The notes beneath the pieces are model-generated. The model saw only the letters and a program-made list of their open reading frames with translations. It made no database searches and was not told the DNA's origin. From IMG/VR virus record IMGVR_UViG_3300036766_000678, positions 96,001 through 160,000 of that record: a stretch of DNA of 64,000 nucleotides; one strand, given 5' to 3'. The stretch comes from a virus. Position numbers and translations under genes: made by a program. Below, piece by piece: positions 5,038 to 63,666 of the stretch; position 1 is the first letter of the stretch, and each line of letters begins with the position of its first letter.

Positions 5038-5283
5038 TTATCTTGGAGCCATATTCTCATTCATTTGTGTATAGATAAAATCAAGCAACTTCTGATATCT
5101 GCCGAGTTTCAACATGGAAATAGGCGACATATTCCCAAGTAGTGGGTTTGTGCATATCATCCAGAATTTCGATTTCGATTCGTCATGGAAGAACATAGTG
5201 TCAATTGCTTTTAAAATAGTATTATAGTGGCACTCATAAAGAATTTTGTCAAATCTAGGACTTTGATTTTTGCTTCGTTTCAT
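5038..5283 (-). CDS. MbcA/ParS/Xre (DUF2384)-like antitoxin C-terminal domain protein
   Basis: FWMICTNPLLGNMSPISMLKLG resembles the W...PN..LGG..P..LL..G pattern. Confidence 0.5.
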   Translation of the reverse strand: MKRSKNQSPRFDKILYECHYNTILKAIDTMFFHDESKSKFWMICTNPLLGNMSPISMLKLGRYQKLLDFIYTQMNENMAPR

Positions 5284-5509
5284 ATTTCCTCTCTAAGTAT
5301 TCTAAATTATCTAAAGGAAGCCATTTTCTACATCTACATCCTTCATTCCAATTCTTACAATGTGCCCAAGGCATTCTAGATTCTGTTATTTCTTCTAAAT
5401 CTTCAGGAGTAATATCTTTAATATCTATTTTACGCCAATGTTCATGGCCGCAGGTACGGCAACATCTTTCATCTAAACCAACAAAACTATATGGTACTTT
5501 TCTTAACAT
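5255..5509 (-). CDS. small Cys/His protein, NLEYLE family
   Basis: CRTCGH...C.C..WLPLDNLEYLERKY. Confidence 0.75.
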   Translation of the reverse strand: MLRKVPYSFVGLDERCCRTCGHEHWRKIDIKDITPEDLEEITESRMPWAHCKNWNEGCRCRKWLPLDNLEYLERKYETKQKSKS

Positions 5510-5657
5510 ATAGATATTCGAGGTATTCTAGATTGTCACTGGGGACCCAATCGTTACAAGCATTTTCAATATAAGTGCTATGTAGATCATGGTAAAATCC
5601 ACATATACGACACCGTGGGTTATTAGTTCTAAATTTTAACTTCTTTTTTCTTTTCAT
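5487..5657 (-). CDS. small Cys/His protein, NLEYLE family (56 aa, not in ORF track)
   Basis: Hand translation: MKRKKKLKFRTNNPRCRICGFYHDLHSTYIENACNDWVPSDNLEYLEYLYVKKSTI*. Confidence 0.75.
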   Translation of the reverse strand: MKRKKKLKFRTNNPRCRICGFYHDLHSTYIENACNDWVPSDNLEYLEYLYVKKSTI

Positions 5658-5859
5658 ACAGAAATTCTAAATACTCAAGATTGTCAGATGGAACATACTG
5701 CATACACCATGGTTTATAAACACCACCTAAAATCCTTGCAGCTACAGCAACTCGTTCACGTTCACATGGTAGCATTTGACTTAATCCATGACAATCATCA
5801 TGCCCACAAACTCTACAGGAACTATTGAACATTTTTCTGCTCATTGATATGGGCTTCAA
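5629..5859 (-). CDS. small Cys/His protein, NLEYLE family
   Basis: CRVCGH...CMQYVPSDNLEYLEFLY. Confidence 0.75.
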   Translation of the reverse strand: MKPISMSRKMFNSSCRVCGHDDCHGLSQMLPCERERVAVAARILGGVYKPWCMQYVPSDNLEYLEFLYEKKKEVKI

Positions 5860-6916
5860 TCTGATTTACACAGGCTTTAACGTCTTTTTTAATTTCATGC
5901 TCCCAAAAACGGAAGACTTTGTAACCACATTTTGTTAAATAAGCATTCTGAGATTTATCTATAGCCCGACGTTTGGCAATACCTGCAAATTCATTTACCT
6001 TATGCTCTAAACAACCATGCCAGTAACAGCCATCTGAAAAAATAATAATTTTATATTCTTCAATAACTGCGTCAACTAAAAATTTATTAAATAAAACTTT
6101 TTGGGTTTCAAAAGGAATATTTCGTTTTGTTAATTCTTCTTCAATAGCCACTTCAATTTTTGTATGATCAAATTTAGAAGCACCAATCCAAGCCCATTTA
6201 TCAATTTCACCAGAAGCAATAAGTCTTTTTCTAGTTTTAGATTGTTTCTTAGCTGCTTTTGCAATAATAGGACTATCTTCTTTTGTTAATCCAGAATTCC
6301 ATCCTGCTCCTGGACCAAATGCATTACCAAATTTTTCAATGTGTGTTTGTTGACTTTTCTCCTGTCTAGCTTGAATTTGCTCAGGAGTCATAAAATAATC
6401 AGGACGTTTTAATTTGCCTTCTGCAAATAGTTTCTTACGGGATTCTGATAGATTTTCAGCATTAATTTTTATACGAGGATCTGTCTCTTTTGTATGGCCT
6501 TCGTTCCAATTCAAATTACTACGATTATAAGAACCTTCTTGTTCAAAACCATTTCGTCTTAAATGCCCTTCTAAAATATGGCGAGAAATATTTAATTCAG
6601 CGGCAACATCTGTCATATTACTATTTTTAACTTTATCAATTAACTCTTGCACATTTAAAGATTCAATCCAACGAAATCTCTTTTGCAATCTACGAGCACT
6701 CCCATTTTCAACTCGTTTTGCATCAGCTTTTAATCGAATAGTTGCGTAATCTTGTTGAATATTGAAATGTTCTTTTAATCGCTTAATAATAACAGACCCG
6801 CATTTCCACTTTTTCAATAAAATAGAATAAGATTCAACAGTAAGTTCTTCTTTTAGAAGTTCTTTATTTGGGTACTCATCTAAAATTCGTTGAAATGTAG
6901 TATACATACCTATCAT
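5822..6916 (-). CDS. Vsr/DUF559-like (EDxHD-type) endonuclease, probable free-standing homing endonuclease
   Basis: FLVD.....IIIFSDGCYWHGC...D..QNAYLTKCGYKVFRFWEHE; W(N)xG.TKE repeats; start moved downstream of the promoter. Confidence 0.8.
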   Translation of the reverse strand: MIGMYTTFQRILDEYPNKELLKEELTVESYSILLKKWKCGSVIIKRLKEHFNIQQDYATIRLKADAKRVENGSARRLQKRFRWIESLNVQELIDKVKNSNMTDVAAELNISRHILEGHLRRNGFEQEGSYNRSNLNWNEGHTKETDPRIKINAENLSESRKKLFAEGKLKRPDYFMTPEQIQARQEKSQQTHIEKFGNAFGPGAGWNSGLTKEDSPIIAKAAKKQSKTRKRLIASGEIDKWAWIGASKFDHTKIEVAIEEELTKRNIPFETQKVLFNKFLVDAVIEEYKIIIFSDGCYWHGCLEHKVNEFAGIAKRRAIDKSQNAYLTKCGYKVFRFWEHEIKKDVKACVNQIEAHINEQKNVQ

Positions 6917-6920
6917 TATA

Positions 6921-6949
6921 AATATATCATAAAAAGCATTATTTTGCAA
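6921..6949 (-). promoter_or_regulatory. sigma70-like promoter
   Basis: TTGCAA-17 bp-TATATT with TG extension, immediately upstream of the endonuclease ORF. Confidence 0.55.
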
Positions 6950-61805: not shown

Positions 61806-62279
61806 TTATTTTATCCTTTTATTCTTTTTATGTTTCTTATCATATTCATTTTCTAAATATTCGAGGTTATCACGATCTTCTGGTTTGGCACATACATTAC
61901 AGCTACAGTAATACCAACCCTGTCCACGAATTTTACCTGGGGTTCCACATGTCTCGCAAGTTGTTATTGATTTCTTTTCTGCGTCTCTTTCAATTTTGTC
62001 AAACCCTGGGGGATACGTGGTAAAATATAAGCGGAGCCCACCAAATTTTTCCTTTATCTGTGAAAATCGTGGCATCCAATCTCTATCTGCATTTGGATTG
62101 TCTTTAAGCCATTTTTTAATCAAAGGTTCAGCTTTTTGACAGGCATCATGGATAATTTGGTACCAACCATCATTACATTCGCAACCAAATCCCATAAGAG
62201 ATTGTGTTAATGGTTTATTAACATCCCCAAAACATAGAGGAAAATCTTTAACTAATTGTTTTTCTAATTCATTCCTCAT
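61806..62279 (-). CDS. phage hypothetical protein (QIKEKFGGLR type) with an appended NLEYLE motif
   Basis: QIKEKFGGLRLY...TCETCGTPG...; ends DRDNLEYLENEY. Confidence 0.65.
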   Translation of the reverse strand: MRNELEKQLVKDFPLCFGDVNKPLTQSLMGFGCECNDGWYQIIHDACQKAEPLIKKWLKDNPNADRDWMPRFSQIKEKFGGLRLYFTTYPPGFDKIERDAEKKSITTCETCGTPGKIRGQGWYYCSCNVCAKPEDRDNLEYLENEYDKKHKKNKRIK

Positions 62280-62467
62280 TTTGGTATCTTTATACAGTCA
62301 ACAAGTCTTCGACCATTTAATCCATTATATTCTGCTGAACATTCACACTCAGGACAAGATTGATACCCTGAAGGCATTTTACTTGCTTCGATTTCAAATT
62401 CTTCAAAGAAGTGCTTACATGTAAGCTGGGTACAAAGATATAACCAGCCTTTCTTTTTCTTTTTCAT
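62276..62467 (-). CDS. small zinc-ribbon protein
   Basis: CTQLTC...CPEC. Confidence 0.5.
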   Translation of the reverse strand: MKKKKKGWLYLCTQLTCKHFFEEFEIEASKMPSGYQSCPECECSAEYNGLNGRRLVDCIKIPK

Positions 62468-62468
62468 A

Positions 62469-62933
62469 TTATCTCCTCACAATATTCTTTACATTATCTA
62501 CTATAAGTTTGCCGAGGCAGTGATCTATTTCATGTTGTACTATACGACTATCGAAGCCATCAAATCGAAATTGAACTTTTTCTCCATTAAGTAATTGACC
62601 TTCAACTTCTACAATTTTATATCTTTTCACTCTAACAGAAATACCAGGACTGCTCAAGCAGCCTTCTACTTGAGTATCCTTATCCTTCTTACTATATCTG
62701 ATAATCCTTAAATTTGCAAGTATCATTTGTTTAGTTTTATTCTCAACACTAAGAATACAAAGATTCTTATTTACTCCAATCTGTGGTGCGGCCAATCCTA
62801 CGCCATGATTAATTATCATTGTTTCTAACATGTCTTGAACTAACTGATTTAGCTCTTCACTATTAAAATTAGTAACCAGTTCTGTTGGTTTATGCAATAC
62901 TGGATCTGTAAAGAGCCTAATGGGTCTCAGCAT
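62469..62933 (-). CDS. def: peptide deformylase (short, lacking the C-terminal helix)
   Basis: GVGLAAPQIG, EGCLS, QHEIDH. Confidence 0.95.
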   Translation of the reverse strand: MLRPIRLFTDPVLHKPTELVTNFNSEELNQLVQDMLETMIINHGVGLAAPQIGVNKNLCILSVENKTKQMILANLRIIRYSKKDKDTQVEGCLSSPGISVRVKRYKIVEVEGQLLNGEKVQFRFDGFDSRIVQHEIDHCLGKLIVDNVKNIVRR

Positions 62934-63087
62934 ATAAATATTCTAAATAAGCTAAATTTCCGCAGGGACGGTAGTTATAGCAACAGCTAATGCCATCTGT
63001 TGGGCAACTTGTACAATACATAGAAAAAGAATCATACTTTTCATGTTCTTCAAACTTACAGCCACATTCACACGGTCTTTTTATCAT
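62917..63087 (-). CDS. small Cys/His protein, NLEYLE family (56 aa, not in ORF track)
   Basis: MIKRPCECGCKFEEH...CCYNYRPCGNLAYLEYLYAETH*. Confidence 0.75.
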   Translation of the reverse strand: MIKRPCECGCKFEEHEKYDSFSMYCTSCPTDGISCCYNYRPCGNLAYLEYLYAETH

Positions 63088-63256
63088 ATAGATATTCTAG
63101 ATATTCTAAATTAGATAGTGGAATATAAAACATACTATCTTTTTCACAATTTGTTCCAGTGTCTGGAAAACACCAGTTTGCGGCATTGAAACTGGGACCT
63201 CCGATTAGACAGTGCTTCTTTAATAATTGGTTACAATTTTTACAAGGTCTTTCCAT
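63068..63256 (-). CDS. small Cys/His protein, NLEYLE family
   Basis: PCKNC...FYIPLSNLEYLEYLY. Confidence 0.75.
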   Translation of the reverse strand: MERPCKNCNQLLKKHCLIGGPSFNAANWCFPDTGTNCEKDSMFYIPLSNLEYLEYLYDKKTV

Positions 63257-63666
63257 TATAATAGATTCTGGTCCTTGAAATCAGTTATGGACTCAAGGTA
63301 GTTGAGATTGTCCAAAAATTCGAATTCAACATTAGTTAATATGATCTCTGGTAATTCTGTTGTAAGCCATTTCCCTATATTTGTTATTTTAATAAATCTC
63401 ATACCATCTTTAAAATCCACACTCAATGGATGATTTTGAATAAGCAAGGGTGTTTTAACTAAAGCATCGTAAAGTGGATTAGTATTATTTCCATCAATTG
63501 TAATTTGCCCTACTGCGCTCAATATATCTTTCTCCCCTTCTATACCGTTATGCCGCCAACCACCTACAACAAATGCCCAATCAATTGTGAAATGCCCCTG
63601 AGTAATGGGATCATGTCCTTGAACGGGTTGCTTGAAATACTTATTATCTATGTCTCTTTTGATCAT
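63256..63666 (-). CDS. hypothetical protein with a partial NLEYLE motif
   Basis: Ends FLDNLNYLES. Confidence 0.55.
   Translation of the reverse strand: MIKRDIDNKYFKQPVQGHDPITQGHFTIDWAFVVGGWRHNGIEGEKDILSAVGQITIDGNNTNPLYDALVKTPLLIQNHPLSVDFKDGMRFIKITNIGKWLTTELPEIILTNVEFEFLDNLNYLESITDFKDQNLL

What the first reader, a model, noticed from the sequence alone, without database searches (positions are those of the whole stretch)
5255..63666. Dispersed family of 24 genes sharing a C-terminal (D/S/T/G)-N-L-x-Y-L-E-x-x-Y motif
Seen: 21 small (56-114 aa) Cys/His-rich ORFs, three of them below the ORF-track cutoff (5487-5657, 57810-57989, 62917-63087), plus three unrelated ORFs, all end in this motif. They occur in arrays at 5.3-5.9, 26.8-29.5, 46.4-48.1, 57.0-59.6 and 61.8-63.7 kb, with a singleton at 16.4 kb. 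The Cys members share C-x(1-2)-C-x-H near the start and often C-x-C-x-x-(Y/F/W)-x-P just before the motif, but the middles are unrelated. Codons vary synonymously (GAT/GAC, TTA/CTA/CTT/CTC/TTG, TAC/TAT), so conservation is at the protein level. Inference: a Zn-binding scaffold with a hypervariable insert and a constant amphipathic helix, i.e. a diversified effector or binder library (anti-defence, adaptor) that docks on one common partner. I cannot match it to a family I know.
Basis: partly seen in the sequence, partly recalled or inferred. Interest (0 to 1): 0.92.

Follow-up and report, generated by a model that had tools for sequence, protein, structure and literature searches.

The report
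Phage peptide tag that chains genes
About one gene in six of an uncultured large-phage group ends in the same short helix, added to zinc-finger-like and unrelated proteins alike, and the DNA coding for that helix often also holds the next gene's start and marks where whole genes are gained or lost, which points to an undescribed plug-in library of small phage proteins.

Summary
Confirmed and larger than reported. 24 window ORFs, 48 in the 180-kb phage genome, and about 50-60 per genome in relatives end in D-N-L-[E/K/R]-[Y/F]-L-E (strict matches 35 vs 0.13 shuffled). 1,156 clusters at 50% identity; no Pfam, PHROG or PDB match. The motif is kept at protein level and folds as a C-terminal helix. 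It is portable: about 20 unrelated families carry it only in this clade, and about 55-60 Cys/His domains lack it. The final Tyr is partly a by-product: the next gene's start sits 25 nt after the Asn codon (119 of 351 motifs, 5 expected), behind weak Shine-Dalgarno Leu-Glu codons, and gene gains or losses break at the motif. The motif stays intact before tRNAs, gaps and operon ends, so a helix docking on one common partner is likeliest (0.42; partner unknown, complex tool unavailable). Nascent-peptide-driven initiation is the main rival (0.2). Middles differ between paralogs but are conserved between orthologs. Closest analogues: T4 capsid-targeting tags, phage G's Zn-ribbon expansion (no detectable homology), PeSL cassettes. 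The scan had noted this only on this same genome.

The parts
5255..5509 (-). Cys/His unit, 84 aa; motif holds the ATG (N+25) of ORF 5038-5283
5487..5657 (-). Cys/His unit, 56 aa; N+25 ATG starts 5255-5509
5629..5844 (-). Cys/His unit, 71 aa; N+25 ATG starts 5487-5657
16423..16635 (-). Cys/His unit, 70 aa, intact motif; followed directly by a tRNA-Ala-like sequence, not by a coupled protein gene
16345..16421 (-). tRNA-Ala(UGC)-like sequence right after the stop of 16423-16635 (read by eye; not called by ARAGORN or Rfam; a relative has tRNA-Ala before tRNA-Asn and tRNA-Met)
26831..27118 (-). Cys/His unit, 95 aa; N+25 ATG starts the 216-aa head-region gene 26239-26889 (same offset in 12 of 12 loci)
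27099..27311 (-). Cys/His unit, 70 aa (Glu at -1); N+25 ATG starts 26831-27118
28605..28826 (-). Cys/His unit, 73 aa (Phe at 4); followed after a short gap by a trypsin-like protease gene
28795..29040 (-). Cys/His unit, 81 aa; N+25 ATG starts 28605-28826; this unit is absent from relative L011
29000..29344 (-). Cys/His unit with Thr-rich N-terminal extension, 114 aa; N+25 ATG starts 28795-29040
29337..29534 (-). Cys/His unit, 65 aa; next start overlaps its last codons
46412..46609 (-). Cys/His unit, 65 aa; ATGA overlap with next gene
47696..47893 (-). Cys/His unit, 65 aa; AlphaFold model pLDDT 74 with the motif as helix 51-63; next gene (DeoC-like) starts at N+37
47859..48065 (-). Cys/His unit, 68 aa; N+25 ATG starts 47696-47893
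57001..57195 (-). Cys/His unit, 64 aa; next gene after a short gap
57173..57379 (-). Cys/His unit, 68 aa, degenerate motif; N+25 ATG starts 57001-57195
57493..57738 (-). Cys/His unit, 81 aa
57810..57989 (-). Cys/His unit, 59 aa, intact motif, followed by a gap of about 70 nt
57999..58649 (-). Phage ClpP protease; starts at the N+25 ATG of 58612-58893; conserved in the clade; candidate partner system (inferred)
58612..58893 (-). Unrelated 93-aa protein carrying the motif (Phe at 3)
58886..59134 (-). Cys/His unit, 82 aa (Ser at 0)
59408..59584 (-). Cys/His unit, 58 aa; N+25 ATG starts 59134-59427
61806..62279 (-). Member of a widespread 120-160-aa family; only clade members carry the appended motif helix (138-155 in a pLDDT-94 model)
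62469..62933 (-). Peptide deformylase; starts at the N+25 ATG of 62917-63087
62917..63087 (-). Cys unit, 56 aa
63068..63256 (-). Cys/His unit, 62 aa; N+25 ATG starts 62917-63087
63256..63666 (-). Unrelated 136-aa protein; N-L-x-Y-L-E kept in orthologs whose bodies are only 30-40% identical

Best explanation
The genes form a plug-in library. Each protein is a variable small domain (mostly a Cys/His metal-binding scaffold, sometimes an unrelated fold) plus a self-contained C-terminal helix, D-N-L-x-[YF]-L-E followed by about 7 or more mostly basic residues. Shown: the helix is selected as protein, is portable and sits almost only at C-termini. Inferred: it docks all these proteins on one common intracellular partner, so that each body brings a different target to that hub. 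My leading guess for the hub is a protein-remodelling machine (the clade's core VAT/Cdc48-like AAA ATPase with the phage ClpP, or a host Clp unfoldase); that guess alone is about 0.2. Shown at sequence level: the motif DNA has two further uses. Its Leu-Glu codons give a weak Shine-Dalgarno site 7 nt before a +1-frame start codon inside codon 8, and whole units (start, body, motif) are gained or lost with breakpoints at the motif. Inferred: this lets units enter or leave operons without silencing the next gene, which explains the expansion to 45-60 copies.
For: Protein-level selection: synonymous codons vary; in ortholog pairs the motif has pN 0.066 against pS 0.87. Portability: 38 BLAST clusters among 52 ORFs classed as non-Cys, about 20 of them clearly unrelated by eye; a widespread family has the helix only in this clade (26 of 85 homologs by pattern, distant ones end at the last Cys pair); 55-60 Cys/His domains lack it. 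Separate helix in two unrelated models, N-capped by Asp. 232 terminal against 1 internal strict copy. Independence from the next gene: the motif is as well kept before gaps, operon ends and tRNA-like genes (mean consensus 3.9-4.3 of 5 in all classes); start offsets switch between orthologs while the motif stays; without a +25/+28 start, junctions are no tighter than neighbouring non-motif junctions (gap 24% in both). Tails shorter than 7 residues after the Glu are rare (39 of 351), then end quickly, so the tail is translated and its length matters. Start-site use: 119 starts at +25 against 4.8 expected; G-ending Leu codons 46 against 22 expected in +25 users and GAG 19 of 26 against 8.9 at +28. 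Joint: several independent presence/absence pairs switch parent at the motif; different bodies fill the same slot before DNA polymerase and a head gene. Core AAA ATPase and ClpP in the clade.
Against: No partner is identified and no binding, expression or metal data exist. Members lie in head, replication and putative early regions, so one hub must serve different times. No core enzyme carries the motif internally. Starts at +25 with almost no Shine-Dalgarno pairing are open and in frame in 74% of cases against 17% in other genes, more than the weak site alone explains; shared ancestry of junctions may account for this but I could not prove it. Exact DNA identity between motif copies is short (best partner typically 12-15 nt, maximum 22), and only 28 of 202 changed neighbourhoods are simple unit indels.
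Confidence: 0.42

Rival explanations
1. The motif is a cis-acting nascent peptide. When it fills the ribosome exit tunnel, the ribosome pauses at codon 7-8 and the same ribosome re-initiates on the +1-frame start codon at N+25 (or +28), with little need of a Shine-Dalgarno site; the Cys/His body could tune this through metal-dependent folding. The genes would be translation couplers or sensors placed before core genes.
For: Sharp, motif-anchored start peak: 119 at +25 and 30 at +28 against 4.8 and 4.0 expected, almost none before +25, and 57 ATGs at +17 unused. The start persists when codon 8 is His, Asn or Ser (GTG 16 of 18 in frame). After allowing for Shine-Dalgarno energy, distance and codon the motif term stays large (logistic coefficient 2.09 +/- 0.26); several weak-site deep overlaps among the controls are degenerate motif genes. 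26 of 95 unrelated downstream families use +25/+28, including DNA polymerase (6 of 7), helicase, SbcC-like, deformylase. The conserved residues lie 3-9 residues from codon 8, as in arrest peptides (general knowledge).
Against: Two thirds of motifs have no +25 start and are just as conserved, even before a tRNA-like gene or an operon end. Leu-Glu codons are biased to GGAG-like forms exactly at Shine-Dalgarno spacing, and GTG starts have stronger sites, as ordinary initiation predicts. Tail length is selected, so ribosomes read past codon 8. Loci are related by descent, so counts overstate independent events.
Confidence: 0.2
2. The helix is a capsid-targeting tag: the proteins are packed into the prohead and injected as an anti-defence cocktail, like T4 internal proteins with their shared targeting peptide.
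For: Small diverse proteins with one shared short tag match the T4 pattern (PMC3012670). Six members sit inside the head-assembly block between portal and the 1568-aa intein-containing gene.
Against: The tag is C-terminal and no large structural protein shares it. Most members lie outside late modules. 45-60 cargo species is far more than T4's three.
Confidence: 0.13
3. The helix is a self-association or surface anchor (short coiled coil or amphipathic helix with a basic tail) that makes members oligomerise with each other or stick to membrane or nucleic acid, with no dedicated hub protein.
For: Hydrophobic residues at 1, 3/4, 7/8 and a Lys-rich tail; helix in both models.
Against: Near-invariant polar Asn0 and Glu5 (98%) suggest specific contacts; generic anchors tolerate substitution.
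Confidence: 0.12
4. The units are largely selfish or neutral cassettes: they spread by recombination at motif DNA and persist because the next gene's start lies inside them.
For: High turnover of neighbours (202 changed against 114 kept ortholog junctions); breakpoints at the motif.
Against: Amino acids, not nucleotides, are conserved; bodies are under purifying selection with near-invariant Cys/His (pN 0.003); unrelated proteins keep the motif better than their bodies.
Confidence: 0.07

Closest known systems
Bacillus phage G Zn-ribbon expansion (about 35 copies, e.g. YP_009015343.1; PHROG 13559 and 4661; noted in PMC7824862)
   Same: Phage G has the closest cultured terminase (30%). Its family is also a many-copy small Zn domain with variable middle and a conserved C-terminal helix 10-17 residues from the end; in register it shares acidic(-1), Asn0, basic(2), Tyr3, Leu4.
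   Different: No detectable homology: profile-profile probability 0.3%, our HMM finds nothing in phage G, motif similarity p = 0.16. C4 ligands instead of Cys/His; Leu1 and Glu5 absent; all 33 aligned members share one full domain; mostly one tandem array; no +25 start (tail codons for K-G-E give an ordinary Shine-Dalgarno site).
T-even internal proteins (IPI/II/III) with capsid targeting sequence (PMC3012670)
   Same: Diverse small proteins united only by a short portable tag that also works on foreign proteins; anti-defence role.
   Different: T4 tag is N-terminal and cleaved (own knowledge); three loci, not 45-60; no metal scaffold; no overlap with the next start.
Clp adaptor proteins (SspB, MecA from own knowledge; SPO1 Gp53, PMC6873191); by logic also F-box/SOCS-box adaptors
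   Same: Variable substrate-binding part plus a constant docking element; phages are known to encode Clp adaptors; this clade encodes ClpP and a classical AAA ATPase.
   Different: No sequence similarity; known bacterial or phage adaptors are single genes, not a library; binding not tested here.
PeSL cassettes of T4-type phages (PMC2839356)
   Same: Short repeated element at gene borders; recombination between copies inserts, deletes or swaps ORFs.
   Different: PeSLs are non-coding promoter/terminator DNA; here the repeat is protein-coding, conserved as amino acids, only 56-67% identical as DNA, and carries a translation start.
Ribosome arrest and recoding peptides (SecM, TnaC, 2A/StopGo; own knowledge) and translational coupling by re-initiation (PMC7538156)
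   Same: Short conserved peptide at a fixed distance from a translation event; overlapping start and stop.
   Different: No described case drives initiation in another frame under the ribosome; one or two per genome, not dozens; pausing untested.
FAM221 Cys/His domain (PF14753)
   Same: Similar C-x-C-x-H...H...C-x-C spacing; Atlas model match TM 0.52.
   Different: Eukaryotic; no sequence match in Pfam; short low-confidence models; no DNL motif shown.

Membership tests
Phage G Zn-ribbon expansion (PHROG 13559/4661) | Profile similarity over the CPxC...C...C domain and following helix | tested here: not met
   hhalign probability 0.27%; no member hits those PHROGs; HMM finds 0 in phage G
Phage G Zn-ribbon expansion (PHROG 13559/4661) | C-terminal [DE]-N-x-x-Y-L helix | tested here: inconclusive
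   Best alignment is in the expected register but p = 0.16 by column shuffling; Leu1 and Glu5 differ
T4-type internal proteins with CTS | N-terminal tag removed by prohead protease | tested here: not met
   Motif is C-terminal in 232 of 233 strict copies
T4-type internal proteins with CTS | Presence in virions and injection | not testable with these tools
   No proteomics; phage uncultured
Clp/AAA adaptor proteins | Binding to an AAA+ unfoldase or protease | not tested
   Complex prediction did not complete
Clp/AAA adaptor proteins | Separable docking element plus variable domain | tested here: met
   Motif on about 20 unrelated families; Cys/His domains without motif exist
PeSL-like cassettes | Indel or swap breakpoints at the repeated element | tested here: met
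   Several independent pairs switch parent at the motif; explains only a minority of rearrangements
PeSL-like cassettes | Non-coding promoter plus stem-loop conserved as DNA | tested here: not met
   Element is coding with synonymous variation
Arrest or recoding nascent peptides | Fixed distance between conserved residues and a translation signal | tested here: met
   Start peak at N+25, present in about one third of loci
Arrest or recoding nascent peptides | Conservation depends on a coupled downstream gene | tested here: not met
   Equal conservation before gaps, operon ends and tRNA-like genes
Arrest or recoding nascent peptides | Ribosome pause at a defined codon | not testable with these tools
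   No RNA holder listed
FAM221 / known zinc-finger folds | Structural match to a solved or curated domain | tested here: inconclusive
   Foldseek best E 4.6, VIA best Z 2.5 on a pLDDT-74 model; Atlas TM 0.52

The most novel reading that the evidence does not exclude
DNLxYLE is a nascent-chain signal that makes the translating ribosome re-initiate on a start codon one base out of frame at codon 8, largely without a Shine-Dalgarno site, and a whole phage clade has placed dozens of metal-binding leader genes with this signal before its core genes (polymerase, helicase, ClpP, deformylase, head genes). That would be a new mode of bacterial translation initiation and a portable coupling part.
Probability: 0.2. 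Interest if true: 0.95.

Novelty: new variant of a known kind. Interest (0 to 1): 0.8.

Why it matters
About 17% of the genes of this phage (48 of roughly 283) share one short tag that is absent from curated families and gave no hit in the literature searched. If the tag docks on one hub, a single pull-down would assign a role to more than a thousand unannotated protein clusters and reveal a modular adaptor or effector library of a size known from eukaryotic F-box proteins but not from phages. The junction itself is a design not found in my searches: about 30 nt that code for a conserved peptide, supply the next gene's start site and mark gene gain and loss. It is directly testable in E. coli reporters. 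If the nascent-peptide reading holds, it is a new initiation mechanism.

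Tried and rejected
DNA-level motif (operator, att site): rejected, codons vary synonymously and near-synonymous swaps such as Leu to Phe or Glu to Asp are almost absent. General boost of coupling by the motif: an apparent lack of gaps vanished against neighbouring non-motif junctions. 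+1 frameshift fusion without a start codon: loci open in +1 but lacking a +25/+28 start nearly all have a nearby start of their own. Known families: no Pfam, PHROG or PDB match; ferredoxin-thioredoxin reductase at E 0.08 is not significant. Fold searches of both models gave nothing. Resemblances from memory to the T4 clamp-binding motif, beta-clamp motif, ssrA tag, SspB tail, YacG and NblA: not tested, invariant Glu5 unexplained, and the phage polymerase lacks the motif. Host: RecA, ZIP transporter and methionine aminopeptidase hits were too distant or seed-biased; host unknown, a bacterium using AAGGAG sites. One family DNA pattern found nothing in GTDB genomes and tblastn of one member found nothing in cultured phages; neither proves absence. 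No motif-free sister clade with enough DNA was found to point to a partner. Complex prediction (AAA N-domain, ClpP, NusG-like against the family) did not complete in nine tries: no verdict. No RNA holder listed. Laying contigs gave no clean joint between motif copies (the 47909-59424 joint is best read as another motif locus matching by short similarity). Literature searches for the motif and for similar systems found nothing except phage G.

Full report
Setting. The window is bases 96,001-160,000 of a 180,416-nt virus record from a sediment metagenome (the best holder may be its source), 34.5% GC, almost all genes on the minus strand. It is a tailed phage whose terminase is closest to Bacillus phage G among cultured phages (30%). 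It uses AAGGAG-type Shine-Dalgarno sites centred at -10. The host could not be assigned.

Observation. Strict matches number 35 against 0.13 in shuffles. Synonymous codons match genome usage except the last Tyr, TAT in 43 of 44.

Range. An HMM of 41 members hits 1,156 clusters at 50% identity. A complete 192-kb relative has 54 matches and fragments of 23-26 kb have 23-27. In 1.2 Mb from 28 contigs I collected 351 non-redundant motifs, with 5 antisense hits. The first relatives were found with a pattern ending in TATGA, later ones with patterns blind to position 8. No Pfam, PHROG or PDB family matches; one pattern scan of GTDB genomes was empty.

Anatomy. The core is D(71%)-N-L-[E/K/R]-[Y79/F15]-L(94)-E(98); position 8 is Tyr in only 44% (N and L were required by the search). 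The usual body is C-x(1-2)-C-x-H-x4-H...C...C-x-C ending 7-8 residues before the Asn. AlphaFold gives a small domain plus a motif helix (pLDDT 74), with no structural match and a weak likeness to FAM221 models. Metal binding is inferred from spacing and from near-invariant Cys/His (pN 0.003). The two modules are separable. About 55-60 Cys/His domains lack the motif. About 20 unrelated families carry it (38 BLAST clusters before removing degenerate Cys units by eye). For 61806-62279, clade homologs carry the helix and distant homologs end at the last Cys pair; the model shows the motif as a terminal helix at 138-155 (pLDDT 94). In the family of 63256-63666 the six core positions persist across bodies of 30-40% identity. 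Strict copies are terminal in 232 cases and internal in 1; four top HMM hits are tandem fusions with an inner copy.

Evolution. Best matches are between genomes, not within them. In 30 independent ortholog pairs the motif has pN 0.066 against pS 0.87 and the non-ligand body dN/dS is about 0.16; pairs were chosen at 55% identity or more and dS is near saturation, so this is rough and biased low. The library is old subfamilies plus gene turnover, not a hypermutating insert.

The hidden start. In 23 of 48 genome members (13 of 24 in the window) the next ORF begins at an ATG formed by Tyr TAT plus G, 25 nt after the first base of the Asn codon, in the +1 frame. This includes deformylase, helicase, ClpP and an SbcC-like gene, several with no other ATG nearby. 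In the 351-motif set there are 119 ATG/GTG starts at +25 and 30 at +28, against 4.8 and 4.0 for pseudo-motifs in other genes. The start persists when codon 8 is His, Asn or Ser. A +1-frame ATG 14-35 nt before a stop is open and in frame with the next ORF in 80% of motif genes against 26% of other genes, and in 74% against 17% when Shine-Dalgarno pairing is very weak. These are ORF-based calls, not measured starts, and loci are related by descent. The Leu-Glu codons lie at Shine-Dalgarno spacing and lean towards GGAG in +25 and +28 users, so ordinary weak initiation aided by coupling explains the position; whether it explains the frequency is open.

Cis or trans. Against a purely cis role: the motif is equally intact before gaps, operon ends and tRNA-like genes; start offsets change between orthologs while the motif does not; junctions without +25/+28 starts look like neighbouring non-motif junctions; tails under 7 residues after the Glu are rare and then end at about 20% per codon, so the helix is translated to its end. 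For a cis role: the sharp anchored peak, the residual motif effect after allowing for pairing energy (coefficient 2.09 +/- 0.26), and use by 26 of 95 unrelated downstream families.

The joint. Different bodies occupy the slot before DNA polymerase and before a head gene while the +25 start stays. In several independent pairs a genome with one unit matches the first of two tandem units upstream of the motif and the second downstream of it. Exact identity between copies is short (12-22 nt at best) and such indels explain 28 of 202 changed neighbourhoods, so this is one route of turnover, in the manner of PeSL cassettes (PMC2839356) but through coding DNA.

Mechanism. Best reading (0.42): a portable helix that docks many small proteins on one hub, with the start site and joint as secondary uses that let units come and go inside operons. 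The clade's core genes include a VAT/Cdc48-like AAA ATPase with a conserved 190-residue N-domain, ClpP, a NusG-like and sigma-like proteins; an adaptor role for the ATPase or a host Clp system is my leading guess (about 0.2), by analogy with SPO1 Gp53 (PMC6873191). The complex predictor did not complete, so no partner was tested. Rivals: nascent-peptide re-initiation (0.2), capsid-targeting tag as in T4 internal proteins (0.13; PMC3012670), self-association or anchor (0.12), selfish cassette (0.07).

Known systems. PMC7824862 notes an unexplained 35-copy Zn-ribbon expansion in phage G. Those proteins end in a helix that shares [DE]-N-x-x-Y-L in register, but profile comparison finds no homology, the motif likeness is not significant (p = 0.16), and they lack the +25 start. 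It is the closest analogue and would be a culturable test case if the two helices bind the same kind of partner. Other first readers of this same genome noted the family and the Tyr-start overlap; I had found the overlap before seeing them. The scan holds no such finding on other DNA.

Verdict. Real, clade-wide, unannotated and not found in the literature searched. It works most like tag-based effector or adaptor libraries and is a member of none tested. Interest 0.8.

Noticed in passing
L004:6949-7040 (minus; genome 60,949-61,040); also L062:4795-4886 and L078:4611-4700: A 90-92-nt tRNA with anticodon UAU (Ile by ARAGORN) and a long variable arm, kept in three genomes of the clade; long-arm tRNAs are normally Leu, Ser or Tyr.
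   Followed up: no
L004:2380-3117 (minus): ZIP-family zinc transporter in a phage with about 40 putative metal-binding miniproteins; only one close phage-like homolog (86%), so not clearly a core gene.
   Followed up: partly
L003:198-2669 (minus); L242:12868-14259: Core VAT/Cdc48-like AAA ATPase with a conserved 190-residue N-domain of no known family; intein-containing in this genome; N-domain not found in phage G.
   Followed up: partly
window 16345-16421 and 16270-16325, 15788-15862 (minus): tRNA-Ala-like sequence missed by ARAGORN, then a truncated tRNA-Asn-like copy, an HNH-like ORF and an intact tRNA-Asn: looks like an endonuclease insertion with tRNA duplication.
   Followed up: partly
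window 18031-20257 (minus): Probable major capsid gene in fragments; Rfam group I intron at 19869-20190 and an endonuclease ORF inside.
   Followed up: partly
L245:2561-21002 (phage G 352-371 kb): Array of about 28 Zn-ribbon paralogs; many tails end in K-G-E, whose codons read AAAGGAGA and serve as Shine-Dalgarno site of the next gene.
   Followed up: partly
L001:7140-7343 and L002:2928-3149 (minus): Cys/His scaffold genes without the motif; conserved motif-less subfamilies exist across the clade and have ordinary gene spacing.
   Followed up: yes
one search list, last entry (a relative's contig): An ORF whose body resembles the N-terminus of the fragmented capsid gene is fused to the motif, suggesting that stray fragments can be captured in frame.
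   Followed up: no
window 57999-58649, 62469-62933, 27931-28596; L004:10045-10818; L003:4534-5280: A large protein-processing kit for a 180-kb phage: ClpP, peptide deformylase, trypsin-like protease, methionine aminopeptidase and a probable M50 peptidase.
   Followed up: partly
alignment A2 against PDB: Weak match (E 0.08) of the Cys spacing to ferredoxin-thioredoxin reductase; an iron-sulfur or redox role instead of zinc is not excluded.
   Followed up: no
window 36924-56990 (minus): Several large ORFs (500-1300 aa) upstream of the terminase with almost no Pfam or PHROG match; the 1281-aa one holds a 2H phosphoesterase-like and other small domains.
   Followed up: no
window 342-1226, 4600-5013, 13653-14465, 20961-21527, 36059-36916, 52164-52973 (minus): Many free-standing endonuclease-like ORFs with repeated C-x-x-G-H modules at their N-termini.
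   Followed up: no
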